DNA of 64,000 bases from a virus (Duplodnaviria > Caudoviricetes), in IMG/VR virus record IMGVR_UViG_3300031994_004484. The stretch is one strand, 5' to 3'. This document shows, one piece after another, positions 3,642-64,000 of the stretch (positions are counted from its first letter, which is position 1; each line of letters begins with the position of its first letter). The translations under genes and the position numbers were made by a program. The notes beneath the pieces are model-generated. The model was not told the DNA's origin. It was given only the letters and a program-made list of their open reading frames with translations, and did not search any database.

Positions 3642-5648
3642 ATGGCGGAGAATCAGATACAGTACACCAAAAGAAATTACGATGAGATAAGGAACGCCCT
3701 TATAGAGATCACAAAGCGTTATTACGGGGATATTTTCAACACGATAAATGACGCTTCGATAGGCCAATGGATAATGGACATCAACTCGGATATTTTCGAC
3801 ATATTGATGTACAACATTGACAGGGCTTATCAGGAAACGAGTATAGATTCCGCAAATAGCAGACAATCGCTTTTGAATATAGCAAAGAGCCTTGGGGTAA
3901 AAATACCGGGTCCAAAAAGCGCGTTAGTCGAGGTTGAGTTGTCATGTATACTGCCTCTCAATACAAGCGCTGTACCGGGTAGTTCGGACAATCTTGCCAT
4001 AGCTGACGAAAGTTATGCGCCATACATAAAGAGAGGCAGCCTGTTCACAGACGGAAGGAACACGTTTGAGTTGATGGAGGATGTGGATTTCAAAACACAG
4101 TTTGATTCAAACGGGATATCAAACAGGCAGATAATCCCGAGAAGGAATTCAAACGGAGAGATAACAGGGTATAGATACAAAAAACTCGCAATAGCTTCAG
4201 CGGGGCAAAGTAAAATATACAAGAGGTTCATAACAAACAGCGACATAGCTCCGTTTTTCAGTGTCACTTTGCAAGATGCCAACATATTGGGAGTTGAGAG
4301 TGTTATATTGAAACAAGGAAGGACATTGGGATTTAACCCCACTGTTGCTGAATTCTATGTTGACGAGGAAAGTTACGAAGACAAGGAAGGAAAGCCTACC
4401 CAACGTTTTTTTGAGGTTGATAACCTTATAGACCAATACAGATTCGGTTATGAAGAACAGGAAGTTGATTCATCGGATGGAAAATATACATATTACTCAC
4501 CCATTTGGGATGTAATAGACACGGTTGAAGTTGTGGGTGATGATGAAGAAACAAAACTCGAACCAATAAGAATGGCGGTAAGAGGCAAATGGAAAAGGTT
4601 GAAAAACAAATTTGTCACGGAATATACCGACAATGGGAACTTAAAACTCATATTCGGTTCCGGACTTAGGAACAAGTATGGCAATATACCTGAGATTGCG
4701 GAAGATTATACACAGTATCGCATGAGCCGAATGGAAGCCAACGACTATATGGGTGTTTTGCCTGAACCGAACACAACAATGTACATATTGTACAGGACAG
4801 GCGGTGGTGAAATGAGCAATATAGGCGCCAACACACTGACCAAGATATTGTCGCTTGCATATGCCATAGACGGAAACTGCAACGATCCAGAGGATACAAG
4901 GAAGAAATCGGATGTAAGGGCTTCTATTGCAGTGACGAACCCGTCACAGTCGTATGGTGGAAAGGACGCTCCAAGTAATGAGGAAATCCGTTTCATGACA
5001 AAATACATATCAGCGGCACAAAACAGATGTGTGACGATATCTGATTATTATGCGAGATTGATGGAAATTCCGGCCAAATATGGGCTTCCGTTCAGATGCG
5101 GTGTTGTAGAGGAAAACAACAAAATTGTCATATACACATTAGGTCTTGACCCTAATGGTTATCTTACAAGCGCATTGGCTGAAAGGGTTGCTGACAATAT
5201 GAAAGAATATTTGTCAATGTACAAAATGTTGACTGATTTTGTTGAAATACGCTCCGGCCGGATAATAAACATAGCTTTCGAGATTGATATATATGTTGAT
5301 AAGACATATGATAAGAGTGAGGTTTCAAAACGGATAATAGAAACCACAAGGGATTATATGGATATAAGGAGACACCAAATGGGTGAAGACATATTCATAG
5401 GTGATTTGGAAAAGGAAATATCGAAACTTGACGGAGTACAGAATTTGATTGATTTGAGATGCTACAACAAGGTTGGAGACGGTTACTCTGAAACACAGAT
5501 TTCCCAACAGATGGTTTCGAACGGTGACACTTTCACGGATGAGGTTGACTTGAGGGAGAGCGACAAGACACTGTTCTCCGAAGCAGGATGCATGTTTGAA
5601 ATAAAATACGCAAATGACATTCAAATCAATGTGCGTGAAAGAGAATAA
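3642..5648 (+). CDS. Baseplate wedge protein (T4 gp6 / baseplate J-like)
   Basis: N-terminal YTKRNYDEIRNAL...SLLNIAKSLG; YRTGGG...N; GGKD...AQNRCVTISDY. Confidence 0.88.
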   Translation: MAENQIQYTKRNYDEIRNALIEITKRYYGDIFNTINDASIGQWIMDINSDIFDILMYNIDRAYQETSIDSANSRQSLLNIAKSLGVKIPGPKSALVEVELSCILPLNTSAVPGSSDNLAIADESYAPYIKRGSLFTDGRNTFELMEDVDFKTQFDSNGISNRQIIPRRNSNGEITGYRYKKLAIASAGQSKIYKRFITNSDIAPFFSVTLQDANILGVESVILKQGRTLGFNPTVAEFYVDEESYEDKEGKPTQRFFEVDNLIDQYRFGYEEQEVDSSDGKYTYYSPIWDVIDTVEVVGDDEETKLEPIRMAVRGKWKRLKNKFVTEYTDNGNLKLIFGSGLRNKYGNIPEIAEDYTQYRMSRMEANDYMGVLPEPNTTMYILYRTGGGEMSNIGANTLTKILSLAYAIDGNCNDPEDTRKKSDVRASIAVTNPSQSYGGKDAPSNEEIRFMTKYISAAQNRCVTISDYYARLMEIPAKYGLPFRCGVVEENNKIVIYTLGLDPNGYLTSALAERVADNMKEYLSMYKMLTDFVEIRSGRIINIAFEIDIYVDKTYDKSEVSKRIIETTRDYMDIRRHQMGEDIFIGDLEKEISKLDGVQNLIDLRCYNKVGDGYSETQISQQMVSNGDTFTDEVDLRESDKTLFSEAGCMFEIKYANDIQINVRERE

Positions 5649-28414: not shown

Positions 28415-30919
28415 ATGGATTGCAGTTGGATTAAAATATATGATGCAGCCATAGGCGGAAACGAACTTGACCCTAATTCATTGACGCCCGGCCAGAACAA
28501 AATCTTTATAGACATAAGCGAGATGCCATCCGAATACGAGTTTCTCGGATGGAAGGATATATCCGGTAATGCAATAGGTGATGATGTGATATCACTTGTA
28601 AGCGGCGGCAGATATGCAACAACATCGCAATGCGGAAGCAATTTTGTCGCTTCGGTTAGAATGAAGGAGGAATCAGTATGTTCTCTTGTTGCGATACCGT
28701 TTGACTCTAAAATGGGTGACGTTACACCAACAGGAATCCAATACGGGTGCAACAAAACCGTCGAAATATCGGCAAGACCTAAATGTTGTTATGAGTTTGA
28801 TTCATGGAACGATTCCGAAGGTCCCGATGTTTTTAGTCCGGATAGGACTGTGACAATTTTGAGCGGTTCGGCAAGATATGTGGCATATTTTGATCCGATA
28901 AGATACAGCATACAGGTTTTTGCAAATAATGACACATGGGGCCGCGTAAACGGTCCTCAAAATGATGTTATATGTGAGGAAAACTTTATTATAGAAGCCA
29001 TACCGGAAGAGGGGTATGCTTTTGTCAAATGGGACGATGATAATACTAATGCAAGAAGAGAGATAACATTTGAATGTGATGGCAAAAGAGTTTATACGGC
29101 CACATTTGCCTCAGATAATGAATATGTTATAACTTATAATGCTAACTACGGAGCAAATCCGCAAACAATCGAACAAGGCTATTTCCAAGTAGGTGCACCT
29201 GTTAAGTTTATGAGTGGGTTTGAAAGGGAAAATTATGTGTTTCTCGGCTGGGGAAAGGAAAGTGATAGTGCGGAACCGGACCCTTCAATTATTCCCGGTG
29301 AAACAGGTACATATGATTGGGAAGAAAGTATAACATTATATGCCGTATGGAGGGAGAAGGACGAACATAAATTTATATATATATACGGTGGCGAAGAACA
29401 CCCATCTTCTAATGGTTATATGGAAGGTGCTGTTGTTGTATTAGACGAAGACCCATATCACGGCGAACTTGAGTATATTTTCCTTGGATGGCGTATGACA
29501 GAGGAGGAAAACGAAGTACCTTCCGAAGACGTTCCAATAATTGGCGCCGGAGGAAGATATACAATGGGCCGGCGCGACACATATGCATATGCGGTTTTGG
29601 CTGAAGACGACGGTAAAGTTTACAATACGCTCACCTATGTTTTCGGAGATGGTTTCGACAATCAGGTGATAGGCGGAATAGTTAATGGTGATTCCGTTAT
29701 ACTGCAAGATCCGATTGTTTTAGGCGTGGATTTTAACCGTGTTCATAAAAATTTTACAACATGGTATATTACTAACAGTTCATTGCCACATGACCCAGAC
29801 TCCCAACTTATTATAACCCAAGATACTGTTTTGACGGCTCAAACAGTAACACAAGAAACTTATGAAATTGAATTTTTAGAGAAATGTGATGATGAATCGC
29901 AAGGGCAAAGCCCCGCTTCAATTATCGGGTATCCTGATGAGATAGTAACTTTGCCCGACATGGCTTCATATATTTGCGGCGAAAACATTTTCAAAGGATG
30001 GTCCAAAGATGATGACGCAACATTTGCGACATACGGTCCCGGTACAAGTATAGCTATTCCCGGAGATATGACCCTTTATGGTATATGGGAAAAACCTTCC
30101 GAATTCAGTGTCTATTACATTGACAATTATAATTGTGGGATAACTGATACCAACACATATTCTGATGGTGACACTGTGATTGTAAAACCGTGCAATTGCA
30201 TGACGCAAGACGGATGTCATTGTACCGGATGGGTTGACGGGGACGGAAACGAATATGAAGGAAATGACACGTTCCAAATACATCACAATACAGTTCTTAA
30301 TGCCGTTTTTGACTGTTGCCTTGTCAGGTTCAGGACAATGGGTAGCGTTACAATAACAATAGACGGAACCGCCATAACAGACAATACCAAATTGAATATA
30401 GACGACAACACCGAGTTTGATGTTGAGGTTGGTGATAATCAGGTTTTCCTTGGTTGGTATGACGCAACCGACAGCGGTTATATATATCCGTGTGAAGAAC
30501 CGTCCGATTACAAATATGTTGTGGTTCCATACACATTAAGGCCTTCTTCAAGTGACATTACCACACTATCAAATGAGAGTTTCATACAGACAATAGAAGA
30601 CAACACACAAAAACTGAATTCATTTATAATGAATTCACAAACAGGCGAAATAAGACAGCGCGTTGGGGTTTGTAGCGGTTCTGAGGAATACAGCCTATCA
30701 TGCGGTTCAACAGTATTTGCCATCGCGATGCCATATGAATATACACAAACTGACGGAAACGACGGTAATACGTATGTGAAATACGATAGCAGGCCATATT
30801 CGGATTTTTACTCATACCTGAATTCAAATCCGACTTATGATAGTCTTCCGGCATTTGTTGAGGTTGTTATCGGCGGAATATCATGCTTTTACGTGGTTCA
30901 TATAGGAGGTATGTTATAG
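28415..30919 (+). CDS. Fibre/adhesin-like protein with Listeria-Bacteroides (Flg_new) repeats
   Basis: YVITYNAN...FLGW...TLYAVW and related repeats; N-terminal domain paralogous to those of 25387 and 55924. Confidence 0.75.
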   Translation: MDCSWIKIYDAAIGGNELDPNSLTPGQNKIFIDISEMPSEYEFLGWKDISGNAIGDDVISLVSGGRYATTSQCGSNFVASVRMKEESVCSLVAIPFDSKMGDVTPTGIQYGCNKTVEISARPKCCYEFDSWNDSEGPDVFSPDRTVTILSGSARYVAYFDPIRYSIQVFANNDTWGRVNGPQNDVICEENFIIEAIPEEGYAFVKWDDDNTNARREITFECDGKRVYTATFASDNEYVITYNANYGANPQTIEQGYFQVGAPVKFMSGFERENYVFLGWGKESDSAEPDPSIIPGETGTYDWEESITLYAVWREKDEHKFIYIYGGEEHPSSNGYMEGAVVVLDEDPYHGELEYIFLGWRMTEEENEVPSEDVPIIGAGGRYTMGRRDTYAYAVLAEDDGKVYNTLTYVFGDGFDNQVIGGIVNGDSVILQDPIVLGVDFNRVHKNFTTWYITNSSLPHDPDSQLIITQDTVLTAQTVTQETYEIEFLEKCDDESQGQSPASIIGYPDEIVTLPDMASYICGENIFKGWSKDDDATFATYGPGTSIAIPGDMTLYGIWEKPSEFSVYYIDNYNCGITDTNTYSDGDTVIVKPCNCMTQDGCHCTGWVDGDGNEYEGNDTFQIHHNTVLNAVFDCCLVRFRTMGSVTITIDGTAITDNTKLNIDDNTEFDVEVGDNQVFLGWYDATDSGYIYPCEEPSDYKYVVVPYTLRPSSSDITTLSNESFIQTIEDNTQKLNSFIMNSQTGEIRQRVGVCSGSEEYSLSCGSTVFAIAMPYEYTQTDGNDGNTYVKYDSRPYSDFYSYLNSNPTYDSLPAFVEVVIGGISCFYVVHIGGML

Positions 30920-54838: not shown

Positions 54839-55340
54839 GATTGAATTCACCGAAGACATTATCAAATTGGTCAAAAACCTTCGTTTCGGCCCCATTGAAA
54901 CCAAATATTATGTGACACCTTCACATGACGATGTGGTTGTCGAGAATGTGGGAAGCGGACGTTTTAACGTAATAAGTGTAAGCGATGAAGGTTTGGCTAA
55001 GGAAATCGCCCCAATCAGGGTTACAAATATTCAGGATTTGGGGGACAACCTTTACGGAATCGACAACTACAACCTTTGGGGCGGAACCTATATCTATGAG
55101 GATATGGCGTACATTCTCGGCAAAATGGACAAGGTTGTGAAAGGAACCGAAGAGGACCCGGACGGTCCTAAATTTGAGGAGGAAACAGCAAAATATCTTG
55201 AAGAACTCGCCTCGTTCATTATCGAAAACCTTTCAAACATTGAGGAGATTCTCCATCAGTTCTGCACAGAAGGTATACACACGGGTGTAACATACGTATG
55301 CAAGCCTAACGAACACATTTGGATCAAGGAGGAAAAATAA
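54825..55340 (+). CDS. Hypothetical protein
   Basis: Overlaps the sigma gene; followed by a terminator. Confidence 0.6.
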   Translation: MAKIKIEFTEDIIKLVKNLRFGPIETKYYVTPSHDDVVVENVGSGRFNVISVSDEGLAKEIAPIRVTNIQDLGDNLYGIDNYNLWGGTYIYEDMAYILGKMDKVVKGTEEDPDGPKFEEETAKYLEELASFIIENLSNIEEILHQFCTEGIHTGVTYVCKPNEHIWIKEEK

Positions 55341-55364
55341 CTTTAGAAAAAAAGCGAAAAAATT

Positions 55365-55393
55365 AACGCGGTCTTGATTGACCGCGTTTTTTT
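55365..55393. terminator. Terminator between convergent genes
   Basis: AACGCGGTC-TTGATT-GACCGCGTT with a T run after and an A-rich stretch before. Confidence 0.75.
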
Positions 55394-55790
55394 ATATGCC
55401 GCTGTTATGTATGAAGTCAATTGCCGTGTTAAGTTCCTTTGTTGTAATCGGGTCTTCACCCTCCAGTTGGTCTTGGAACATATGTCGTGCAGAATCATGG
55501 TCAACACCCGGATGCAACCTATATGCTATCTGTGATTTCTTTATAATCGGGTTCTTGTCAAGAATGGTGTTAAGTTGACCAAGGGCACTTCTCTTTTTTC
55601 CGCTGTCCTTTTCTTTGTCATTGTTTTTTTTATCATCTTTTTTATTGCCACCCTCAAAGACCCCCTCATCTACACCCTCAAAGACTCCCTCATTGTACAT
55701 TCTCTTGAGTTCCTCACGGATTATTTCCTTAACAGTCTGACGCTCAACTTCCTCGTGGACACATTCCTTTATCAATTGTCTTATATCCAT
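55392..55790 (-). CDS. Hypothetical (probable virion) protein
   Basis: IRQLIKECV / IIREEL motifs; EGVFEG duplication; ATATTTAT upstream on the minus strand (55824-55831). Confidence 0.6.
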   Translation of the reverse strand: MDIRQLIKECVHEEVERQTVKEIIREELKRMYNEGVFEGVDEGVFEGGNKKDDKKNNDKEKDSGKKRSALGQLNTILDKNPIIKKSQIAYRLHPGVDHDSARHMFQDQLEGEDPITTKELNTAIDFIHNSGI

Positions 55791-55851: not shown

Positions 55852-55923
55852 TCAAAACAGGGAAAAGGTTTGTTTGAAAAATTTTCCTCTCTGATAATAT
55901 TTATGTTTATCTGAATTTGACTA

Positions 55924-56730
55924 ATGGCCTGCAATTATTTAGAGATATACAAAGGTAACACAAGGATAACAAGCACGACGGATTTGATTCCGGGCGAAAC
56001 GCTTACCGTTGTCGTCAGGGAGGACTTGTACCCCGGGCATACCTTTGCCGCATGGGTGGACAGGGCCGGAAACGTTCTTGACCCATATCCTCAAGGCGGA
56101 TATACCGAAGACGGTTACCCGTATTTCCTTTTCACAGTTACATGCGACAGTTACTTCAACGCACTTTTCAAACCCGATGTCGTTCAGGAGGTGCTTATAC
56201 AAACAATTGTAAATGACGAGGATTTGGGTTCGGCAAGCGGAGGTGGTACATTTAATACAGGTGACCTTGTTACATTGACGGCCACACCCGTTGACACATG
56301 TACGGCGAGATTTGTTGAATGGAGGAAGAAAACGACGGGGGAGGTGGTTTCGATAAACGAGCAGTTCACGGTTGTCGCTACGGAGAGCAGGATATACGAG
56401 GCTGTGTTTGAACTGATTGAATACAAAATCAACCTCACAATAAACAACAGGTTCTACGGAACGGTCTCACAAAGCGGAAATGGAACATACCATTTCGGAG
56501 ACACGGTGACGTTTATTGCTGAACCGAATGAAAACTGCACATTTTTGGGATGGTATGAGAACAACGAACTGATAAGCGAGAATGAGGTCTATTTATATAC
56601 TATAGACAAGATTGGGGACGAATGTGTGGAGGAAAGGAATATTGTCGCAAGGTTTAAGACAAACCTTTATGAAATAGATGTCTTTTTTGATGAATTTGAA
56701 ATAAACGCAAACGGTATTTTTATAATATAA
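55924..56730 (+). CDS. Fibre-like protein with InlB-B/Flg_new-like repeats, ending in an incomplete repeat
   Basis: GSASGGGTF...VTLTATP...FVEW; GTYHFGDTVTFIAEP...FLGW; ends YEIDVFFDEFEINANGIFII*. Confidence 0.8.
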   Translation: MACNYLEIYKGNTRITSTTDLIPGETLTVVVREDLYPGHTFAAWVDRAGNVLDPYPQGGYTEDGYPYFLFTVTCDSYFNALFKPDVVQEVLIQTIVNDEDLGSASGGGTFNTGDLVTLTATPVDTCTARFVEWRKKTTGEVVSINEQFTVVATESRIYEAVFELIEYKINLTINNRFYGTVSQSGNGTYHFGDTVTFIAEPNENCTFLGWYENNELISENEVYLYTIDKIGDECVEERNIVARFKTNLYEIDVFFDEFEINANGIFII

Positions 56731-56756
56731 GAAAAAAAAAAATATAATAATTAATT

Positions 56757-57536
56757 ATGTCATACATTAGTTCAAGTAGTCCAACATTTCAAGCTCAGAA
56801 GCCTGAAGGTAATTACACCATATCCAATATAAGTGCTAAACCTTGTTATGGCATTTTTTTGAAATGTACTAAAACAACAGGAAATGGGACCGCTTCAGGA
56901 TGGGAGTCAGGCTTATTAGAAGCGGCTTCTGGAGCAACAACATATGATGGTATAAACCAAGGATTGTATTCTTCCGTTAATATTAAATCCTTTTTATTAA
57001 ATTCTACAACCGACCCTGTAAAATATTGGATTTATAGTGTCCCTTTGAGATATATAATTACTTATCATCAAAACAATGATGGAACGGGTAATACTAAAAC
57101 GGTTTTTACAGATGACCCAAATGCGGGCACGTTATGCAACTGTTCTTCAACAACACCTTCGGCAGGACATCCATGTTATATTCCTGAAGCATGCGATATT
57201 TGCTCAAGAAGGCTCTCTTATCAAACAGGTGGAGGGTCTACAATATATTATGAAACCGATATTTACACTTATACAGGGCAGAAATTAGGTTGGACAATTC
57301 CTTCTGGTACATTTACAGGATGGACAACTACACAAGGAGGAACAACTCCCGATATAACAATACAAGAAATCGCTCAATCAACTCTGTATGAACAATTAAT
57401 TTACGGATTATGCGATGTAACAACAGAGCGTCATTTATATCCGGTAATTACACCTGAAGCACAATATAATATAAATGTTTATTTTGATACTAATGAAATA
57501 AAGAATATATCAGTTTCTGACATTTCTCAAGTTTAA
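56757..57536 (+). CDS. Fibre module: half repeat, Flg_new-like repeat, half repeat (AT-rich cassette)
   Basis: Strong A-rich start region; YIITYHQN...FTGW...LYPV; ends YNINVYFDTNEIKNISVSDISQV*. Confidence 0.75.
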   Translation: MSYISSSSPTFQAQKPEGNYTISNISAKPCYGIFLKCTKTTGNGTASGWESGLLEAASGATTYDGINQGLYSSVNIKSFLLNSTTDPVKYWIYSVPLRYIITYHQNNDGTGNTKTVFTDDPNAGTLCNCSSTTPSAGHPCYIPEACDICSRRLSYQTGGGSTIYYETDIYTYTGQKLGWTIPSGTFTGWTTTQGGTTPDITIQEIAQSTLYEQLIYGLCDVTTERHLYPVITPEAQYNINVYFDTNEIKNISVSDISQV

Positions 57537-57562
57537 TAGATTATTATAGAGTACACTAACTT

Positions 57563-57588
57563 AAAGCCGTCTTCGGGCGGCTTTTTTT
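57563..57588 (+). terminator. Intrinsic terminator with a cUUCGg loop
   Basis: AAAGCCGTC-TTCG-GGCGGCTTTTTTT. Confidence 0.85.
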
Positions 57589-57596
57589 GTGCCTCG

Positions 57597-57604
57597 ATAT
57601 TTAT
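57597..57604 (+). promoter_or_regulatory. ATATTTAT motif upstream of the giant terminal ORF
   Basis: Same terminator-then-motif layout as at 3231 and 39264. Confidence 0.5.
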
Positions 57605-57680
57605 AAAAAAGTCTGCACAAACAGTAAAACAATAAGGTTTTTGCAGGTTTGTTATATAATTTTGGAAAATTTAGAACAGG

Positions 57681-60600
57681 GTGTCAAATTTTAATTCGCA
57701 CGAGAGTTTTGATTTTAACGATACGACGCAAAGAACCGCAAGTGTCGAGAACCAACCCCACTACGGGGTTGAGAAGGTGACCCACCAATCAGAGAGCGGA
57801 AGTGAAGTGACAATCACAGGCGGGGACAGCATAAACGGTATATTAAACAATGATTTGTCGAGGGCCACGGAAAACAATCCCGTTACATTTCCCGCAACAC
57901 CAGCAAGCAGCAGTCCTTTAAGTGACTATTACGTTCATGGAAGGCAGATAAAATACAGAGTCACAACCAATGTATCTCCGGGTACAATTTTAGGCAGTGT
58001 TTCTGTAGATAATGAAACAAAAAACAATCAGAATACGGACATCGTTGAAGGAAGCACACACAGTGTTGTTGCAACACCAAATTCTCCGTGTACTTTCCAA
58101 AATTGGACCGGTGATTATGATGAATTTTCGGTTCCAACAGATACAGGTAACAGTAAGACAATACCGAATACATTGGACGATGATATGACGGTAACGGCGA
58201 ATTTCAACTGTGTTGTCAACGTCGAAGACCCAACAGGTGCTGTGATACAAAACCCGACGTCTTGTTCGTGGTCCAAAATTCAAAACATGTATGTGAATGA
58301 AAACGGAAATTGCTGTAATTTGGTTAAATATACTTTAGGGCCGCAGGAGATTTTATTGGCGCAGAACAATTGCAACAAATCATTCCTGAATGTGTATTCG
58401 GCATATTACAAACCAATTCCTCAACCAAAATGTTATTCATATGTATATCATGCAAGAGGTTGGGCCGGTGATGTAGGTTCTTCACATCCTTCGGCTTGTT
58501 ATGTTGCACCTCAATTTGGTTTGAACACCACAGACAGTCAGACTGGTTTGCCTGTCGGTAATTACGCCATGATGATACCAACAAGTAACAGCGGTAGAAA
58601 ACCCTGTGATCCGGTACAGGATGAAACCCTTTGCAATGACCCATGTTATATAGTGAATACAATACCGACGATAAGTTCAAATGTAGGTTATAGCAAACCA
58701 ATCGATGTTTATAGGTATTACACAAGATGCACCGAAAATAATGTAACATATTCTTGTCTTAGTGACAACAACCATCCCGAATGGGAAAATGATGGAAGGC
58801 CTGATGTTGAAATCTTTTTGGGAACGGCAAGTTCAACAAACGTATTCTCATGGGGAAATTACGCCATTTCCGAAAATAGTACGAACAGCATAGGTAAATG
58901 GATGGTTAGTAACTCTGCAATTGCCGATTTTCCGAGAAGTACGTGGCTTGTTATATGCCCGCAATCAGGTGGCTATCATTTTGACCCTTCACGCTTTGAC
59001 ATAAGTGATGTTGACACAATAACTTATCAAAGCCAAACTATAACAAACGTAAATGAGTTGCTTGACACAACTAAGAGCGGTTTATCGTCAAATCAGGCTG
59101 TTTGGTTCGAGCTTGAAGTTAAGGAAATACCAATAACTTCAGTTCCGGCGAATTCTGATTTCCTGCAAACATACTATGACAATTCGGACGATATAGTATG
59201 GGGAGACCAAAATGACGGAACACTAATAACACAGATAAACGGAAACTATATAAGCAGGGATTGGCCAAACACAATACGTATTTGTCTTTCAAACGGAAAT
59301 TCAACGTATTACAACAAAATAGTATATAGGGACATGTTGTTCCGCAAGAATTGTAATGGAGGGACAATAGGCCCAAATGGGATTGAAGAAATTCAAAACA
59401 TGACATCAACAAACACATTTTTCTTCCAAGACGGAGAATGTGGAAGCTTCAATGGTTGGGCAAACGGCAATGGAACTATCATTGAGAGTGATAATATTCT
59501 TAATTTGTCAGTTCCGTCATCTTGCTGCAACACCTACCATCCTGAAGTGGAATCCTGTTCCGACAAGTATTATCCGTATGGCTTCAGGATTGTAAACGGT
59601 GGTACTGTGAAATATTACAGATGTGCCATTCTTCCTTATTGTGACAACTCAACAGGAAACTTTTTAACACCACCGAACGGTAGCACTATAATAACGAGTC
59701 TTGATATTAATACAATAATAACGGAAGGTTTAGTACAGAATGGTAATATTGTTGGTTTGGACAATGTGTTTTTTGCATTGACCCCAAACAGAACACTATA
59801 TTTCAACGGTTTGATGTTACTTAAATTTGACAACACCCAAAATTGGGAATACTATACAACAGACGGGGATTCAAGGGAACTTACCACAACTTCAACCGCT
59901 TCAGGAATACCACTAAGCGAAACCGGAAAACTTACAAACGAAACAAACAATTCAACCCATTATTATCGTATTGCTTACATGGAGATAGAGGACACCATAG
60001 GACAAGATTCATACATATCGAATTACGCAGCAATAGATGATGCATTCCTTTCAGGGGAAATATTCCTGTATGCCGATGACAGTGATTATGATGAGGAGAT
60101 GTACAACGGTTTGAAGGTCAAATATGGGGTTGTGTACAAAAACAATTGTGGTATAAATAAAAGTGCCGTTTTGTTGTCATGTTTTGACGGTGTAGATGGT
60201 GATGAACTCACGTTGAAAATGTCTCTTGAAAGCAGATACATCGACTATGGTGTTACAAGAGATGTGGAAACCGATGCTACAAACACACTGTACAGATATG
60301 TTAAAAGGTATGAGCCTCTTGTTGATTCCCCTAACAATTACGATTATGGTGAAAAAAGCAATATGGTGAGTTGGTCTGATATTGGTGACGGCAGGGTCAA
60401 TGATTATACCATATTTGGTTTACGTTCGTTTGTAGAAAGAAACCCATTACCATTTGGGAGCCAATACATTTACAAATACAACCTTTTTGATGGTTATGAT
60501 TTTGGGTTCGAACAAGAGAAACGGGTTTTTGTTTCAGAAAAAATATGGGAAAAACAAACAACACAAGATCCGGATATTCCGTGGCAATACGTTAAAGTGA

Positions 60601-63600
60601 ACAACACCACATCGTGTACGGATGGTAATAATACTTACTATAATTACGACCAAAACGATGGTGACAATTCAAATGCACGTTCTTGTAATATGCAGGAAGG
60701 CCTGTTCCTTTTAGCCCACGATAATAATAGCGAATCAATTGTTTTACTTACAAACAGTAATCTCAGTTATTACACTAATCCTTCTTATTATACTTTTCCC
60801 ACAGATATTGACTATGTTTGTTCTAACGCTCCGACAACAAGTTATTGTGAGGGGCCACAATTAGCCGGGTATAATTATGTTCTTGAAGACGGTGGAATAG
60901 GAACGAGGTTTGAGATAGACTCAACCCAAACTTATGAGCTTGGTCACTACTGTTATGGTACAGATAGTAATTCATTCACATACGGACGTTGGTGGCCGTT
61001 AAATTATGACGAAATCATAGACGAGTGTTCTTTTTATAATTTAGATACATACCATCTGATAAACAGCAATCAAACTTCATATACAGGAACGAGAAAATAT
61101 ATTCTTATAAAAAATATAAATGGTCTTGATCAGGCCAGTTATTATGATTTTGTTAATAATCTTTGGGTTGATTATGACGCTTTCCCGTGCCTTATAGATT
61201 GTACTGCCATGGGGGTGAATGATGAATTGATTATTCTGAGAGAGATTGATGATTTAGGAGAATGTACCGCTGATGAGTCGTATTATGTAATAATAAACGA
61301 AGGTTATACTGATATAAACAGAGAGAAACACGATACAATATGCCATGTGGCAAACTATTTTTATGCAAACAAAAAATATGTAACACAGTCTGGTTTTGAA
61401 GACATAATGAATGATAGTGACATTACACTTTGTTTAAGGGTGGCATATGTCACAAGCGAAACAAAGGGAATATTGGTTTACGTTGACGGACAATATGTAA
61501 GCAATGTTTATGAGGGAGATGCCAACGGTGATGTTGCAGAAGCAACAATTTCGGGCGGCTATTTCAATAGCGGAACCATTGATAGTTATTCATTTTTCAA
61601 GGGTTCTGACTGCATAACGAACGGAGGCACATACAATTCTCCATATACATTATTCACTGCCGATGAACTTATAGATGCATGGGAACGTGAAATAAGGTTT
61701 GTGAAAATCGGCGAAAATATACCGTATGATGTCAAACCCTTTAATTCCAATACACCACCATATGTAAAAAACAGTGTTTATCGTTTGAATGTGGATAAGA
61801 TTAGTGAAACATCTAGTAGTAGTTTTTATACCGAAGCCCATAATTTTTGGAATACTTCCACACACTCATATAATGCCAAGGAAAGTGGTTCTGAAATAGA
61901 ACTTTCTTTTGAAAACGGTGATATCATGATTCCTGTAAGGTGGAATAATAGCAATATAGTCAGTATTAAAGAATATTACTGTTCAAAAGATGGTTTTGAC
62001 GGAAATGGTTTGTATATTGGCATACCCGAATTACAGAGTGGTACCACCTATTATAAACCGCAATGTTATACATTAAGTGGAGCTCAGGAAAGCGGTTCTT
62101 GGAAAGGTGTTTTCAGAAATCTGTCATGTGATTGCTGCTCAAATTTGGTACACACAGGGTATGGTTTCATGCCAATGGAAACATCAACTTCCGGAACCTA
62201 TGACTATTGTGCATATAAAAGGGAAATATCATACAACCAAGAGTTAGGTATATACGAAATAACCAAGTACGGTTATTATGCAAACGATATTTTCATTGAA
62301 GTCCCGGAAAATGGTATTAAATGGTTAAGGCTTAGTGACGACGGTGTACATGTTTCAATCGTAAACAACATAATTGACGGCATATCCGTGGAAAAGTTGA
62401 ACACAGGCATGTATGAACTTACACCACCGTTGGAAAAGGTTGGAAATGTATTGCAAAAAGATTATTACGATTACATTCTTTTCAATGGAACACCATCAAG
62501 TGCCTCATCTGATGTTTCCACAACATCGCAGTTGGAAACACACAGGGACACAAATCACACTTTGTTCATACATACAACTACAAATGTCCACGCCCCAATA
62601 ACAAATCTACCAAACCAACAGGGTGCCGCAAGAACATATCCTTCCGGGAAATATTGGGAACTCATATCCAACTATTATTACGAAACATCTGTTAATGGGA
62701 GCCAAAATCCGTATAGATTCCAATTTTTAGGGTGGTTGGTTGAGGACAAACCCGTATACAAATATTATTGCGACTCAAATTGCAATGGTATAACGGGTCG
62801 TGTGAAATTTCCGATAAGAAATTCTTTCGAAGAAAATAGCGACAATTCATTGACGTATGAGTCAATATACTCAATATATCCTGATGTTTCATATCCGTTC
62901 AACTTAGTAAATACAAATGTTGAATCTTACAGGGTGGTGAGAAATGTTGTCGAGTTGGACGAGTGTTTGAAATCGGCAGTTTTATTCAAGGTGGATAGTT
63001 ATGATGCCAATGATATTACCGGTATGGATGGGAATACATACTATAATGGATATTTTTATGAGCCAAATCCAAGTTTATTGACAACAGCAATAAAAAACAT
63101 GTATCCGTACATAGAGACAGATGATATTGTAATGGATTACATGGGAAAACAGTATAACGCCAATTCAACTTATTCAAACACAGGTGTGCGTTCCATAATA
63201 TTCACGCAGGATGATGTGAAAAGGGTTTTCAATAGAGACGTTGAATATGCAATGATAGCCGACTATGTCTTGTATGATGAGTATCCATCAGAATCTATTG
63301 ATGTTTATACAATAGACGACCTAAAAAATGCCATTTCAAATAAAGCGGAATACATAAATGTCCAGGCAAACATTATTTACCGCTATATGAAGTACGAAAG
63401 CGGGCATTATTATCAATACAATAAAATAACTATTAATGGTACTCAATATAACGGAGGAGACGTATTCAAACGCGAGATTGGCTACAGGTTTTTCCCGAGG
63501 GACGAAAAGGTGCGTGTAATGGGATGCCAAACTGCCACCGCCATATATGCACATAATTTCTTTCTCACTTTTTGCTCAAGCGCATATGGTTTCGGTTGCG

Positions 63601-64000
63601 GAGTGACAACTGACGGAATGTCAGGAATGCAGTTCTCATATGATGACTCATTATTATACGGATTGGCTTCAGGTTTAAACGATCCGGAGGTCTTCTATAT
63701 AGACCACAGGCATTTCACAGGCTCACACAGATTATCATATACCTTGATTGATACAATCGAAAACGAAAATGGTGATATAATAGAAGCCGGAGATAGTTTC
63801 AATTCAAATTGCCAAAATATGAATGGGTATAATGTCGGGAAGTGTAGTAGAGAAACATTCACGGGTGAACATGTCGAGATGGATATAGATAAGATAAACG
63901 ATATAAAAACCTTTGTTGACGGCATTCTTCCCTATTGCAACCAAAGTCTGACAATGAGCGGATCGTGTGAGAGTTTAATAGTCACAAACAATCAGGAAAG
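57681..64000 (+). CDS. Giant (>2100 aa) Cys/Tyr/Asn-rich fibre/adhesin-like protein, 3'-truncated by the window
   Basis: Hand-translated from GTG 57681 to about 60960 and at the last line with no stop. An internal stop would have produced a long ORF-track entry, and there is none. Contains the repeat VVATPNSPCTFQNW...TVTANF. Confidence 0.85.
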   Translation, partial: MSNFNSHESFDFNDTTQRTASVENQPHYGVEKVTHQSESGSEVTITGGDSINGILNNDLSRATENNPVTFPATPASSSPLSDYYVHGRQIKYRVTTNVSPGTILGSVSVDNETKNNQNTDIVEGSTHSVVATPNSPCTFQNWTGDYDEFSVPTDTGNSKTIPNTLDDDMTVTANFNCVVNVEDPTGAVIQNPTSCSWSKIQNMYVNENGNCCNLVKYTLGPQEILLAQNNCNKSFLNVYSAYYKPIPQPKCYSYVYHARGWAGDVGSSHPSACYVAPQFGLNTTDSQTGLPVGNYAMMIPTSNSGRKPCDPVQDETLCNDPCYIVNTIPTISSNVGYSKPIDVYRYYTRCTENNVTYSCLSDNNHPEWENDGRPDVEIFLGTASSTNVFSWGNYAISENSTNSIGKWMVSNSAIADFPRSTWLVICPQSGGYHFDPSRFDISDVDTITYQSQTITNVNELLDTTKSGLSSNQAVWFELEVKEIPITSVPANSDFLQTYYDNSDDIVWGDQNDGTLITQINGNYISRDWPNTIRICLSNGNSTYYNKIVYRDMLFRKNCNGGTIGPNGIEEIQNMTSTNTFFFQDGECGSFNGWANGNGTIIESDNILNLSVPSSCCNTYHPEVESCSDKYYPYGFRIVNGGTVKYYRCAILPYCDNSTGNFLTPPNGSTIITSLDINTIITEGLVQNGNIVGLDNVFFALTPNRTLYFNGLMLLKFDNTQNWEYYTTDGDSRELTTTSTASGIPLSETGKLTNETNNSTHYYRIAYMEIEDTIGQDSYISNYAAIDDAFLSGEIFLYADDSDYDEEMYNGLKVKYGVVYKNNCGINKSAVLLSCFDGVDGDELTLKMSLESRYIDYGVTRDVETDATNTLYRYVKRYEPLVDSPNNYDYGEKSNMVSWSDIGDGRVNDYTIFGLRSFVERNPLPFGSQYIYKYNLFDGYDFGFEQEKRVFVSEKIWEKQTTQDPDIPWQYVKVNNTTSCTDGNNTYYNYDQNDGDNSNARSCNMQEGLFLLAHDNNSESIVLLTNSNLSYYTNPSYYTFPTDIDYVCSNAPTTSYCEGPQLAGYNYVLEDGGIGTRFEIDSTQTYELGHYCYGTDSNSFTYGRWWPLNYDEIIDECSFYNLDTYHLINSNQTSYTGTRKYILIKNINGLDQASYYDFVNNLWVDYDAFPCLIDCTAMGVNDELIILREIDDLGECTADESYYVIINEGYTDINREKHDTICHVANYFYANKKYVTQSGFEDIMNDSDITLCLRVAYVTSETKGILVYVDGQYVSNVYEGDANGDVAEATISGGYFNSGTIDSYSFFKGSDCITNGGTYNSPYTLFTADELIDAWEREIRFVKIGENIPYDVKPFNSNTPPYVKNSVYRLNVDKISETSSSSFYTEAHNFWNTSTHSYNAKESGSEIELSFENGDIMIPVRWNNSNIVSIKEYYCSKDGFDGNGLYIGIPELQSGTTYYKPQCYTLSGAQESGSWKGVFRNLSCDCCSNLVHTGYGFMPMETSTSGTYDYCAYKREISYNQELGIYEITKYGYYANDIFIEVPENGIKWLRLSDDGVHVSIVNNIIDGISVEKLNTGMYELTPPLEKVGNVLQKDYYDYILFNGTPSSASSDVSTTSQLETHRDTNHTLFIHTTTNVHAPITNLPNQQGAARTYPSGKYWELISNYYYETSVNGSQNPYRFQFLGWLVEDKPVYKYYCDSNCNGITGRVKFPIRNSFEENSDNSLTYESIYSIYPDVSYPFNLVNTNVESYRVVRNVVELDECLKSAVLFKVDSYDANDITGMDGNTYYNGYFYEPNPSLLTTAIKNMYPYIETDDIVMDYMGKQYNANSTYSNTGVRSIIFTQDDVKRVFNRDVEYAMIADYVLYDEYPSESIDVYTIDDLKNAISNKAEYINVQANIIYRYMKYESGHYYQYNKITINGTQYNGGDVFKREIGYRFFPRDEKVRVMGCQTATAIYAHNFFLTFCSSAYGFGCGVTTDGMSGMQFSYDDSLLYGLASGLNDPEVFYIDHRHFTGSHRLSYTLIDTIENENGDIIEAGDSFNSNCQNMNGYNVGKCSRETFTGEHVEMDIDKINDIKTFVDGILPYCNQSLTMSGSCESLIVTNNQE

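What the first reader, a model, noticed from the sequence alone, without database searches (positions are those of the whole stretch)
55924..57980. Three fibre genes split at the same point inside one repeat domain; the middle gene sits in a 965-bp cassette whose removal restores one reading frame
Seen: gene A (55924) ends YEIDVFFDEFEINANG|IFII* and gene B (56757) ends YNINVYFDTNEIKNIS|VSDISQV*, both looking like the first strands of a new repeat. Gene B starts MSYISSSSPTF...TISNISAKPCYGI...YDGI...KYWIYSVPLRYIIT, and gene C (57681) starts (M/V)SNFNSHESF...TASVENQPHYGV...INGI...DYYVHGRQIKYRVT. These two starts align by eye and look like the missing remainder of that repeat. All breaks fall at E-I-x4|(V/M/I). 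Deleting 965 bp between the in-frame AAC codons at 56710 and 57675 fuses A to C (...EINAN-RVSNFNSH...). Single 60-nt lines I counted gave 31/60 GC in A, 15/60 in B and 32/60 at the start of C, so B looks foreign. B's end echoes its own start (ATGTCATACATTAGTTCAAGT vs GTTTCTGACATTTCTCAAGT). B has its own start region and terminator; C has its own ATATTTAT motif and A at -3/-6/-12/-13. Inference, in order of preference: (1) separately made subunits chain by beta-strand complementation (A+C, A+B+C or A+Bn+C), giving a plug-in fibre of tunable length; (2) the cassette is excised or swapped at DNA level to vary the receptor-binding fibre; (3) RNA- or ribosome-level joining (last sense codons ATA and GTT vs downstream starts ATG and GTG, both followed by TCA), which the terminator and promoter disfavour.
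Basis: partly seen in the sequence, partly recalled or inferred. Interest (0 to 1): 0.85.

Follow-up and report, generated by a model that had tools for sequence, protein, structure and literature searches.

The report
Swappable three-gene fibre locus, shared tail
Three neighbouring fibre-like genes of a giant rumen phage are separate genes: the middle one is swapped whole between strains, and the first two end in the same short conserved peptide, which probably holds the parts together but whose binding partner is unproven.

Summary
The sequence facts hold: gene A (55924-56730), gene B (56757-57536) and gene C (57681 onwards, 2488 aa). A and B end in the same roughly 20-residue motif, x-I-x-V-[FY]-F-D-x-x-E-I-x4-I.

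- **The motif is real.** It occurs only at these two C-termini in the 136-kb genome. It survives in B alleles that are only 31-42% identical, with different codons. AlphaFold2 leaves it unstructured after A's three B-repeat domains.
- **Four other assemblies of close relatives keep the A-B-C layout.** In three of them C starts with ATG where the window has GTG.
- **B is replaced whole.** Flanks are about 95% identical; similarity stops at B's start and resumes at B's terminator. Three alleles exist.
- **The locus is a mosaic.** A's tail and C's first 177 residues come in two matching types; C's body comes in two types, in all four combinations.
- **Not supported:** B and C N-termini do not align significantly. 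Tail plus next N-terminus does not score as a B-repeat. The 965-bp deletion that restores the frame is arithmetic only. B's GC is not an outlier. No read joint skips B.

Best reading: separately made subunits of a mosaic host-recognition locus, with the tail as an attachment peptide. The scan's only other note on this feature is the same stretch read in an overlapping window, not other DNA.

The parts
55893..55904 (+). GATAATATTTAT motif 20 nt before A's ATG; candidate phage promoter element
   Evidence: ATATTTAT recurs shortly upstream of many starts in the window. The 12-mer alone is not above chance. Promoter function is inferred.
55924..56730 (+). Gene A, 268 aa: three InlB-B-repeat-type domains (residues 1-84, 89-164, 167-246) plus a tail. 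It is a paralogue of the N-terminal 210 residues of the 834-aa protein at 28415-30919.
   Evidence: Pfam Flg_new_2, E 1.2e-16. AlphaFold2 pLDDT 84.8 with three domains. BLASTP to the 834-aa protein E 1.8e-8 and to the G001 848-aa protein E 2.8e-12. 89-94% identical in four relatives.
56662..56727 (+). A tail, residues 247-268 (NLYEIDVFFDEFEINANGIFII): conserved C-terminal peptide with no predicted structure in the monomer model
   Evidence: pLDDT 57 falling to 42 and no secondary structure. Motif shared with B. It switches haplotype independently of A's body: L002 vs L010 differ at 5/246 body and 7/22 tail positions, p 5.7e-6.
56731..56756 (+). A-B spacer of 26 nt with an A-run. Its length differs between relatives (26, 23, 9, 16 nt), and a stop lies in B's frame three codons before the ATG.
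56757..57536 (+). Gene B, 259 aa: the exchangeable allele. It has a variable N-terminal region (residues 5-97), a core that looks like a Listeria-Bacteroides repeat by eye (RYIITYH ... F.GW ... LYPV, residues 98-232) and a tail.
   Evidence: No Pfam or PHROG hit. Its only relatives among 1.84 billion representatives are stand-alone proteins of 259-289 aa. DNA similarity to relatives is lost between 56733/56769 and 57562. Invariant columns cluster at residues 1-4, 98-119, 186-191, 227-230 and 243-248.
57465..57533 (+). B tail, residues 237-259 (YNINVYFDTNEIKNISVSDISQV): the same motif as A's tail
   Evidence: Conserved in alleles of 42% and 31% identity. Codons differ: A-tail vs B-tail DNA identity is 0.72, 0.56 and 0.51 in three genomes.
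57563..57591 (+). Intrinsic terminator after B. It is also the point where similarity to all relatives resumes.
57597..57680 (+). Conserved B-C intergenic region, with ATATTTAT at 57597 and a TTTG ... TAATTTTG stretch; candidate promoter of C
   Evidence: Conserved in all relatives. Motif recurrence. Promoter function is inferred.
57681..58211 (+). Gene C, N-terminal module (residues 1-177). GTG start here, ATG in L010, L011 and L012. Residues 1-88 have an unknown fold and contain an invariant block, F10-N24. Residues 89-177 form one B-repeat.
   Evidence: Pfam Flg_new_2 25.9 bits on residues 117-176. Two types exist, about 56% identical, and they segregate with A's tail type.
58212..64000 (+). 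Gene C body. It runs past the window end; the whole protein is 2488 aa. Two types, about 38% identical, recombine freely with the N-terminal module.

Best explanation
A, B and C are three separately translated proteins of a mosaic, fibre-like host-recognition locus. It lies in an accessory region of a roughly 370-kb jumbo phage from ruminant gut.

**Shown**
- The three-gene layout, with C's own start, terminator and conserved upstream region, is kept in every relative found.
- The locus is built of exchangeable blocks: A body | A tail + B + terminator/promoter + C residues 1-177 | C body. B's ORF is additionally replaced on its own.
- A and B share a C-terminal peptide of about 20 residues. 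Selection keeps it at the peptide level, and it is not part of A's folded domains.

**Inferred**
- A is an adaptor. Its three B-repeat domains copy the N-terminal module of an 834-aa protein in the baseplate/fibre gene cluster.
- The tails of A and B are attachment peptides that dock, probably by beta-strand addition, onto a conserved acceptor in the same block. The most likely acceptor is C's N-terminal 88 residues.
- This would make a junction in which A links the complex to the virion, C is the long variable arm and B is a small branch. B would be held by its conserved C-terminus and would expose its variable N-terminal region.
- Host range would then vary by homologous recombination at the conserved block boundaries.
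For: **Separate genes**
- The same A(268)-B(259/276/289)-C(2490-2511) layout is found in L002, L010, L011 and L012.
- C has ATG in three of these assemblies, with stops just upstream.
- No fused form was found by phmmer of B over 1.84 billion representatives, or by searches with C residues 1-180 and with A against longer proteins.

**Exchange**
- blastn breakpoints lie at 56733/56769, 57562 and 58211.
- All four combinations of C N-terminal type and C body type exist.
- A's tail haplotype {window, L002} vs {L010, L011} matches the intergenic and C N-terminal types.

**Tail**
- It is specific to these two C-termini.
- hhalign E 0.0032.
- It is kept in B alleles of 31-42% identity with different codons.
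- It is unstructured in a confident model of A.

**Polarity and fibre context**
- B's invariant residues lie in the core and tail, while its N-terminal region varies.
- C is the reverse: a semi-conserved N-terminus and a variable body.
- A resembles the N-termini of the 834-aa and 848-aa proteins. These lie in a run of large ORFs that begins about 330 nt downstream of a baseplate-wedge gene.
Against:
- The AlphaFold2 model of B failed, pLDDT 27.
- Virion location is inferred from paralogy only. The locus sits among non-structural genes (sigma factor, IF3, methyltransferases), and the 372.8-kb relative G001 lacks it at the syntenic place.
- The co-segregation of A's tail with C's N-terminus rests on four genomes. 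It could be simple linkage across 1 kb.
- A disordered tail in a monomer model is also what a functionless remnant would give.
Confidence: 0.55

Rival explanations
1. Head-to-tail chain by domain completion. The tail of A is the first beta-hairpin of a repeat whose remainder is B's N-terminus, and B's tail completes C's N-terminus in the same way. This gives A-B-C, A-C or A-Bn-C chains.
For: - By eye, the tails resemble the first two strands of a Listeria-Bacteroides/B repeat. In the paralogous 834-aa protein a full Flg_new repeat begins just after the A-like module ends (residues 237-310, profile 1-64).
- The tail is free in the model of A.
- B and C both start MS-x-[IF], and each has about 90 residues before its first clear repeat strand.
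Against: - Chimeras score about 0 bits against the repeat HMM.
- There is no Pfam or profile similarity in either N-terminus.
- At about 90 residues, these N-terminal regions are longer than a whole repeat (about 73 positions), not a repeat lacking 20 residues.
- B's N-terminal region, the supposed acceptor of A's conserved tail, is B's most variable part.
- No genome with tandem B copies or without B was found.
Confidence: 0.17
2. The tail is a small self-association element. It would work like the beta-hairpin foldon of T4 fibritin (from my own knowledge), bundling copies of A, of B, or of A with B, with no acceptor domain in C.
For: - It is a short C-terminal peptide with a strand-turn-strand pattern, shared by two otherwise unrelated proteins.
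- It is conserved at the peptide level and invisible to a monomer model.
Against: - There is no sequence similarity to any solved structure.
- This reading does not explain why A's tail type follows the type of C's N-terminus.
- It is untested.
Confidence: 0.13
3. The tail has no function of its own. It is a leftover of a truncated repeat, or the footprint of a recombination event that placed B behind A and duplicated A's end.
For: - A imperfect 38-nt direct repeat (74% identity) brackets B's body in the window.
- An earlier first-reader note in this scan (e1-5824162) reports another block in this genome bracketed by a direct repeat that gives two proteins the same end. I did not check that note.
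Against: - In L010 and L011 the two tail-coding stretches are only 56% and 51% identical in DNA, yet they keep the motif.
- B alleles of 31-42% identity keep F243, D244, E247 and I248 invariant.
- This is the pattern of selection on the peptide, not of a recent duplication.
Confidence: 0.1
4. Programmed joining: site-specific excision or inversion of B, or joining of A, B and C at RNA or ribosome level.
For: - The A-to-C frame offset is +2 in all four haplotypes although the partial offsets differ. With two or three independent haplotypes this is about p 0.1.
Against: - No joint skips B in four runs, one of them an RNA library.
- There are no flanking recombination repeats beyond AT-rich chance matches, and I saw no recombinase nearby.
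- Stops lie immediately upstream of B's and C's starts, spacer lengths vary, and C has its own ATG in relatives.
Confidence: 0.02

Closest known systems
Multi-protein and branched phage tail fibres: T4 long tail fibre gp34-gp37 (own knowledge); LtfA/LtfB of T5-like phage DT57C (PMC4728585); hyperbranched fibres of jumbo phage phiKp24 (PMC9700779)
   Same: Adjacent genes make separate fibre parts that are joined through conserved terminal segments. The receptor-facing parts are variable and are exchanged by recombination.
   Different: There is no sequence relation. In those systems the docking segment is usually N-terminal. Here the conserved peptide is C-terminal on two of the three proteins, and B's variable end is N-terminal. 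Assembly and virion location are not shown here.
InlB B-repeat / Listeria-Bacteroides repeat proteins (Pfam Flg_new_2 PF18998 and Flg_new PF09479; fold described in PMC8900821)
   Same: A has three such domains and C at least one. The fold resembles a beta-grasp whose strand beta2 forms a sticky, protein-binding edge (PMC8900821). That makes beta-addition by a hairpin plausible.
   Different: Those are mostly bacterial surface proteins with whole repeats. A free terminal half-repeat-like peptide shared by two proteins has not, to my knowledge, been described for them.
Donor-strand complementation and strand exchange in chaperone-usher pili and Bacteroidota type V pili (own knowledge)
   Same: This is the mechanism that the rival chain model would resemble: a terminal strand of one subunit completes the fold of the next.
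   Different: There is no homology. No incomplete acceptor fold was detected, and the chimeras do not score as a repeat.
Programmed fibre-switching systems: Mu G-segment or P1 C-segment inversion, and diversity-generating retroelements (own knowledge)
   Same: The outcome is the same: alternative receptor-binding parts at one locus.
   Different: I saw no invertase, inverted crossover sites, reverse transcriptase or template repeat. The variation here is between strains, not within one genome.

Membership tests
InlB B-repeat-containing proteins (Pfam PF18998 Flg_new_2) | At least one domain that matches the family model above its gathering score | tested here: met
   A scores 60.9 bits against a cut-off of 23.6, in two stretches, and AlphaFold2 gives three domains. 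C residues 117-176 score 25.9 bits in the 180-aa piece but 22.7 bits in the 1000-aa piece, which is borderline. B has no hit.
Split-domain or donor-strand complementing subunits | The acceptor subunit has an incomplete domain that the donor peptide completes | tested here: inconclusive
   Chimeras of tail plus next N-terminus score about 0 bits against a local B-repeat HMM. Pfam and hhalign find nothing in B residues 1-100 or C residues 1-95. The fold of these regions could not be predicted: the model of B had pLDDT 27.
Split-domain or donor-strand complementing subunits | Physical contact of the donor peptide with the acceptor | not testable with these tools
Mosaic (recombining) phage receptor-binding loci | Near-identical flanks around sharply bounded divergent alleles, with block combinations that are phylogenetically incongruent | tested here: met
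   Flanks are about 95% identical, B alleles 31-42% identical, and C bodies about 38% identical. Breakpoints lie at 56733/56769, 57562 and 58211 plus one just upstream of A's tail, and all four C combinations exist.
Mosaic (recombining) phage receptor-binding loci | The proteins are virion fibre or receptor-binding components | not testable with these tools
   The only support is paralogy of A with the N-terminus of an 834-aa protein in a run of large ORFs downstream of a baseplate-wedge gene. There are no PHROG hits.
Site-specific invertible or excisable fibre cassettes | A recombinase gene and crossover repeats flanking the cassette; alternative junctions in reads | tested here: not met
   There are no significant flanking repeats, I saw no recombinase among the neighbours, and no joint skips B.

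The most novel reading that the evidence does not exclude
The shared C-terminal peptide of A and B is half of a beta-domain that folds only when it is inserted into a partner subunit (C's N-terminal region, or B's). That would make a plug-in fibre junction in which whole receptor-binding subunits such as B can be exchanged between strains because the connector peptide is kept constant.
Probability: 0.2. Interest if true: 0.8.

Novelty: new variant of a known kind. Interest (0 to 1): 0.45.

Why it matters
If the tail is a portable connector, it defines a minimal rule for attaching new receptor-binding modules to a giant phage of rumen Bacteroidota-type hosts. The host assignment is inferred only from promoter-like motifs. 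That would explain how such phages vary host range by swapping whole small genes, and it would give a handle for predicting which proteins belong to one fibre complex from sequence alone. If it is not a connector, the locus is still a clean natural example of block-wise recombination with mapped breakpoints.

Tried and rejected
- **AlphaFold2 of B** with four sequences failed, pLDDT 26.6. The ESM Atlas gave no lead for B.
- **Fold searches with the model of A.** Against PDB, Foldseek gave only generic matches to strings of beta-domains. The viral library gave uncultured-phage 'bacterial repeat domain' proteins. PDB by sequence gave nothing.
- **Family and locus searches.**
  - PHROGs gave nothing for A, B or C.
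  - Viral-contig scans with A, B and C's N-terminus found nothing.
  - The phage GenBank collection gave no DNA match.
  - The metagenome scan with the A family found only bacterial B-repeat proteins.
  - The search for longer A relatives returned generic bacterial repeat proteins and no A-C fusion.
- **'Domain cap' idea rejected.** I tested whether the extra strands simply belong to A's third domain. AlphaFold2 leaves residues 247-268 unpacked, and the 1430-aa paralogue-cluster protein ends exactly at a repeat end with no tail.
- **T9SS sorting-domain idea rejected** for the tail: it is too short and there is no signal peptide (sequence; own knowledge).
- **Reads.** RNA-library contigs identical to pieces of A, B and C exist in one sheep-gut metatranscriptome, but DNA carry-over cannot be excluded. 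Gaps in contig cover, including over the terminator, mean nothing.
- **15-nt AT-rich inverted repeat** exactly flanking B (56743-56757 / 57534-57548). The spacer sequences of relatives printed show no obvious counterpart, so I treated it as chance.
- **B-C N-terminal alignment at a shift of -2** (CYGIF vs HYGVE) stands out by about 2.6 sd over 13 shifts (my own estimate from the scores printed). This is marginal and I did not count it.


Full report
**Setting.** The window is bases 30419-94418 of a 135.9-kb viral contig that CheckV rates 37% complete, so the genome is roughly 370 kb. Public runs that hold the stretch are sheep, bovine and goat gut metagenomes. Upstream lie an AAA-M41 protease, DnaK, DnaJ, NUDIX, IF3, a sigma factor, a 171-aa ORF and a 132-aa ORF on the minus strand. 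Downstream of C lie a 302-aa ORF, two further ORFs with no family match, and a D12 methyltransferase. A complete 372.8-kb relative, G001, whose sigma factor is 50% identical, keeps this synteny but has other genes where A-B-C sit. It has no match to B or C. A-B-C is therefore an accessory block of one lineage.

**The three genes.**
- **A (55924-56730, 268 aa)** matches Pfam Flg_new_2, the divergent InlB B-repeat, at E 1.2e-16.
  - With a 44-sequence alignment, AlphaFold2 gives a confident model (pLDDT 84.8). It has three beta-domains, at residues 1-84, 89-164 and 167-246.
  - The last 22 residues have no secondary structure, and pLDDT falls from 57 to 42.
  - A is a paralogue of the N-terminal 210 residues of an 834-aa protein at 28415-30919 (E 1.8e-8) and of its 848-aa counterpart in G001 (E 2.8e-12).
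  - The 834-aa protein belongs to a run of large ORFs that begins about 330 nt downstream of a baseplate-wedge gene at 3642-5645. In it, a complete Flg_new repeat starts just after the A-like module ends (residues 237-310).
- **B (56757-57536, 259 aa)** has no Pfam or PHROG match.
- **C** starts at GTG 57681 and is 2488 aa long in the full contig. It has one B-repeat at residues 89-177.

**Relatives.**
- phmmer of B against 1.84 billion representative proteins finds only three true relatives. All are stand-alone: 259 aa (97% identical), 276 aa (42%) and 289 aa (31%) by the alignment.
- Their contigs (L002, L010, L011, L012) all show A (268 aa), B (259, 276 or 289 aa) and C (2490-2511 aa) in the same flanks. 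A fifth, short contig without DNA shows the same order.
- In L010, L011 and L012, C begins with ATG exactly where the window has GTG, and TGA lies three codons upstream.
- The A-to-B spacers are 26, 23, 9 and 16 nt. The B-to-C spacers are 144, 141, 137 and 154 nt, so the frame offsets between neighbours differ between genomes.
- These facts settle that A, B and C are three genes. They remove any need for recoding or splicing.

**Mosaic structure.**
- blastn of the window against the relatives shows about 95% identity through the flanks and A.
- Against L010, L011 and L012, similarity ends at 56733-56769, which is A's stop to the 13th base of B. It resumes at 57562/57563, the first base of the terminator stem. 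B's ORF is therefore replaced as a unit, and three alleles are known.
- Against L002, identity is 93% up to 58211 (C residue 177). After that, C drops to about 38% amino-acid identity.
- C's N-terminal module has two types: {window, L002} and {L010, L011}. C's body has two types: {window, L011} and {L002, L010}. All four combinations therefore exist.
- Inside A there is a further breakpoint just before the tail. L002 and L010 are identical over most of A (5 differences in 246 residues) but differ at 7 of the last 22 residues (Fisher p 5.7e-6).
- In the tail-coding stretch the haplotypes group as {window, L002} vs {L010, L011}, the same partition as the B-C intergenic region and C's N-terminal module.
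- The blocks are therefore: A body | A tail, B, terminator-promoter and C residues 1-177 | C body. B is additionally exchangeable on its own.

**The shared tail.**
- A ends NLYEIDVFFDEFEINANGIFII. B ends QYNINVYFDTNEIKNISVSDISQV. The other B alleles end TINIFFDSAEINSSSISIVSQA and YSVSVFFDSTEIVGSGITVQ.
- The core [FY][FY]D..E[ILV] occurs three times in all ORFs of 60 aa or more in the 135.9-kb genome. Two of these are the ends of A and B. It occurs once, internally, in the 372.8-kb G001.
- Profile comparison of the B family with the A family gives the two tails as the single best match (E 0.0032).
- At DNA level, the tail-coding stretches of A and B are 72% identical in the window but only 56% and 51% identical in L010 and L011. 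The motif is therefore kept by selection on the peptide, not by DNA homology or a recent duplication.
- Across B alleles the invariant residues cluster at 1-4, 98-119, 186-191, 227-230 and 243-248. The N-terminal region, residues 5-97, is the least conserved.

**What is not supported.**
- B's and C's N-termini are not significantly alike by BLASTP, by hhalign or by a shuffle test (p 0.33). They share only MS-x-[IF].
- I built a 73-position HMM from 23 B-repeats of this phage and G001. True repeats score 40-80 bits. Chimeras of a tail with the next protein's N-terminus score about 0 bits.
- The N-terminal regions before the first clear repeat strand are about 90 residues long. That is longer than a whole repeat, not a repeat missing 20 residues.
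- B's GC (35.3%) is within the genome's ORF range of 39.4 +/- 3.6%.
- Four runs, one of them a metatranscriptome library, show no joint that skips B. The only joints are a 1.6-kb insertion at 55340/55388.
- There are no meaningful repeats flanking B, and I saw no recombinase nearby.

**Interpretation.**
- The pattern of conservation is informative. A is conserved throughout. C is conserved at its N-terminus and variable beyond. B is variable at its N-terminus and conserved at its core and C-terminal tail.
- A's tail is unstructured on its own and is inherited with B and C's N-terminus rather than with A's body.
- The simplest reading is a junction of three separately made proteins, with the two tails as attachment peptides.
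  - A would tie the complex to the virion, because its domains copy the N-terminal module of a protein in the baseplate/fibre cluster.
  - C would be the long variable arm.
  - B would be a small branch that exposes its variable end.
- The B-repeat fold has a sticky edge strand, beta2, used for protein contacts (PMC8900821). Docking by beta-strand addition is therefore plausible.
It remains an inference, because no binding test could be run.
- Option 2 is right in the sense of recombinational allele exchange between strains. Option 3 is rejected.

**Verdict.** This is a real, well-bounded feature: a mosaic three-gene fibre-like locus with a whole-gene allele (B) and a conserved C-terminal peptide shared by two otherwise unrelated proteins. 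Its kind is known; the connector peptide and its possible mode of docking are new but unproven.

Noticed in passing
window 55340-55388; L002:7033-8622; L010:7048-8636: Relatives L002 and L010, and contigs of runs X5 and X7, carry a 1.6-kb insertion exactly at the bidirectional terminator 55365-55388. It holds a D12 methyltransferase and an HNH endonuclease. The window and L011/L012 lack it: a presence/absence polymorphism of a likely mobile cassette.
   Followed up: partly
window 56242-56376 (A residues about 107-151): Within A, the second B-repeat of L011 is only 62-76% identical in DNA to the other three genomes, while the neighbouring stretches are 87-98% identical. This is a small replaced patch inside a conserved gene.
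   Followed up: no
window 55649-55693 (minus-strand 132-aa ORF): There are three copies of a 21-nt unit, starting 12 nt apart, that encode EGVFEGVDEGVFEG. This stretch is also the least conserved part of that gene between relatives.
   Followed up: no
window 56731-56745: The A-run after A's stop codon differs in length between relatives (A11, A8, A7, or absent). It lies after the stop, so it has no coding effect.
   Followed up: yes
window 55924-57681 and the same span in L002, L010, L011: C is in frame +2 relative to A in all four haplotypes, although the A-to-B and B-to-C offsets differ (2+0, 2+0, 0+2, 1+1). With two or three independent haplotypes this is about p 0.1, so probably chance.
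   Followed up: partly
window 3642-31884: A baseplate-wedge gene (phrog_6/219) is followed by a run of very large ORFs (2182, 1071, 636, 816, 304, 1430, 1007, 834 and 333 aa). Three of them carry B-repeats, and none has a PHROG match. The order 304-1430-1007-834-333 is matched in G001 by 304-1258-874-848-327.
   Followed up: partly
window, 13 sites including 1600, 3231, 20125, 39264, 40281, 55897, 57597 (+) and 55831, 46830 (-): ATATTTAT lies 15-85 nt upstream of many start codons in intergenic DNA, which suggests a phage promoter element. A and C have one; B does not.
   Followed up: partly
L009:1888-5664 (G001 1258-aa protein): This protein ends with a B-repeat followed by a cysteine-rich 30-residue extension (CLIDVKCDTTCGVILRCD...). 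It is another case of extra strands after the last repeat, with a different sequence. Its window counterpart (1430 aa) has no such extension.
   Followed up: no
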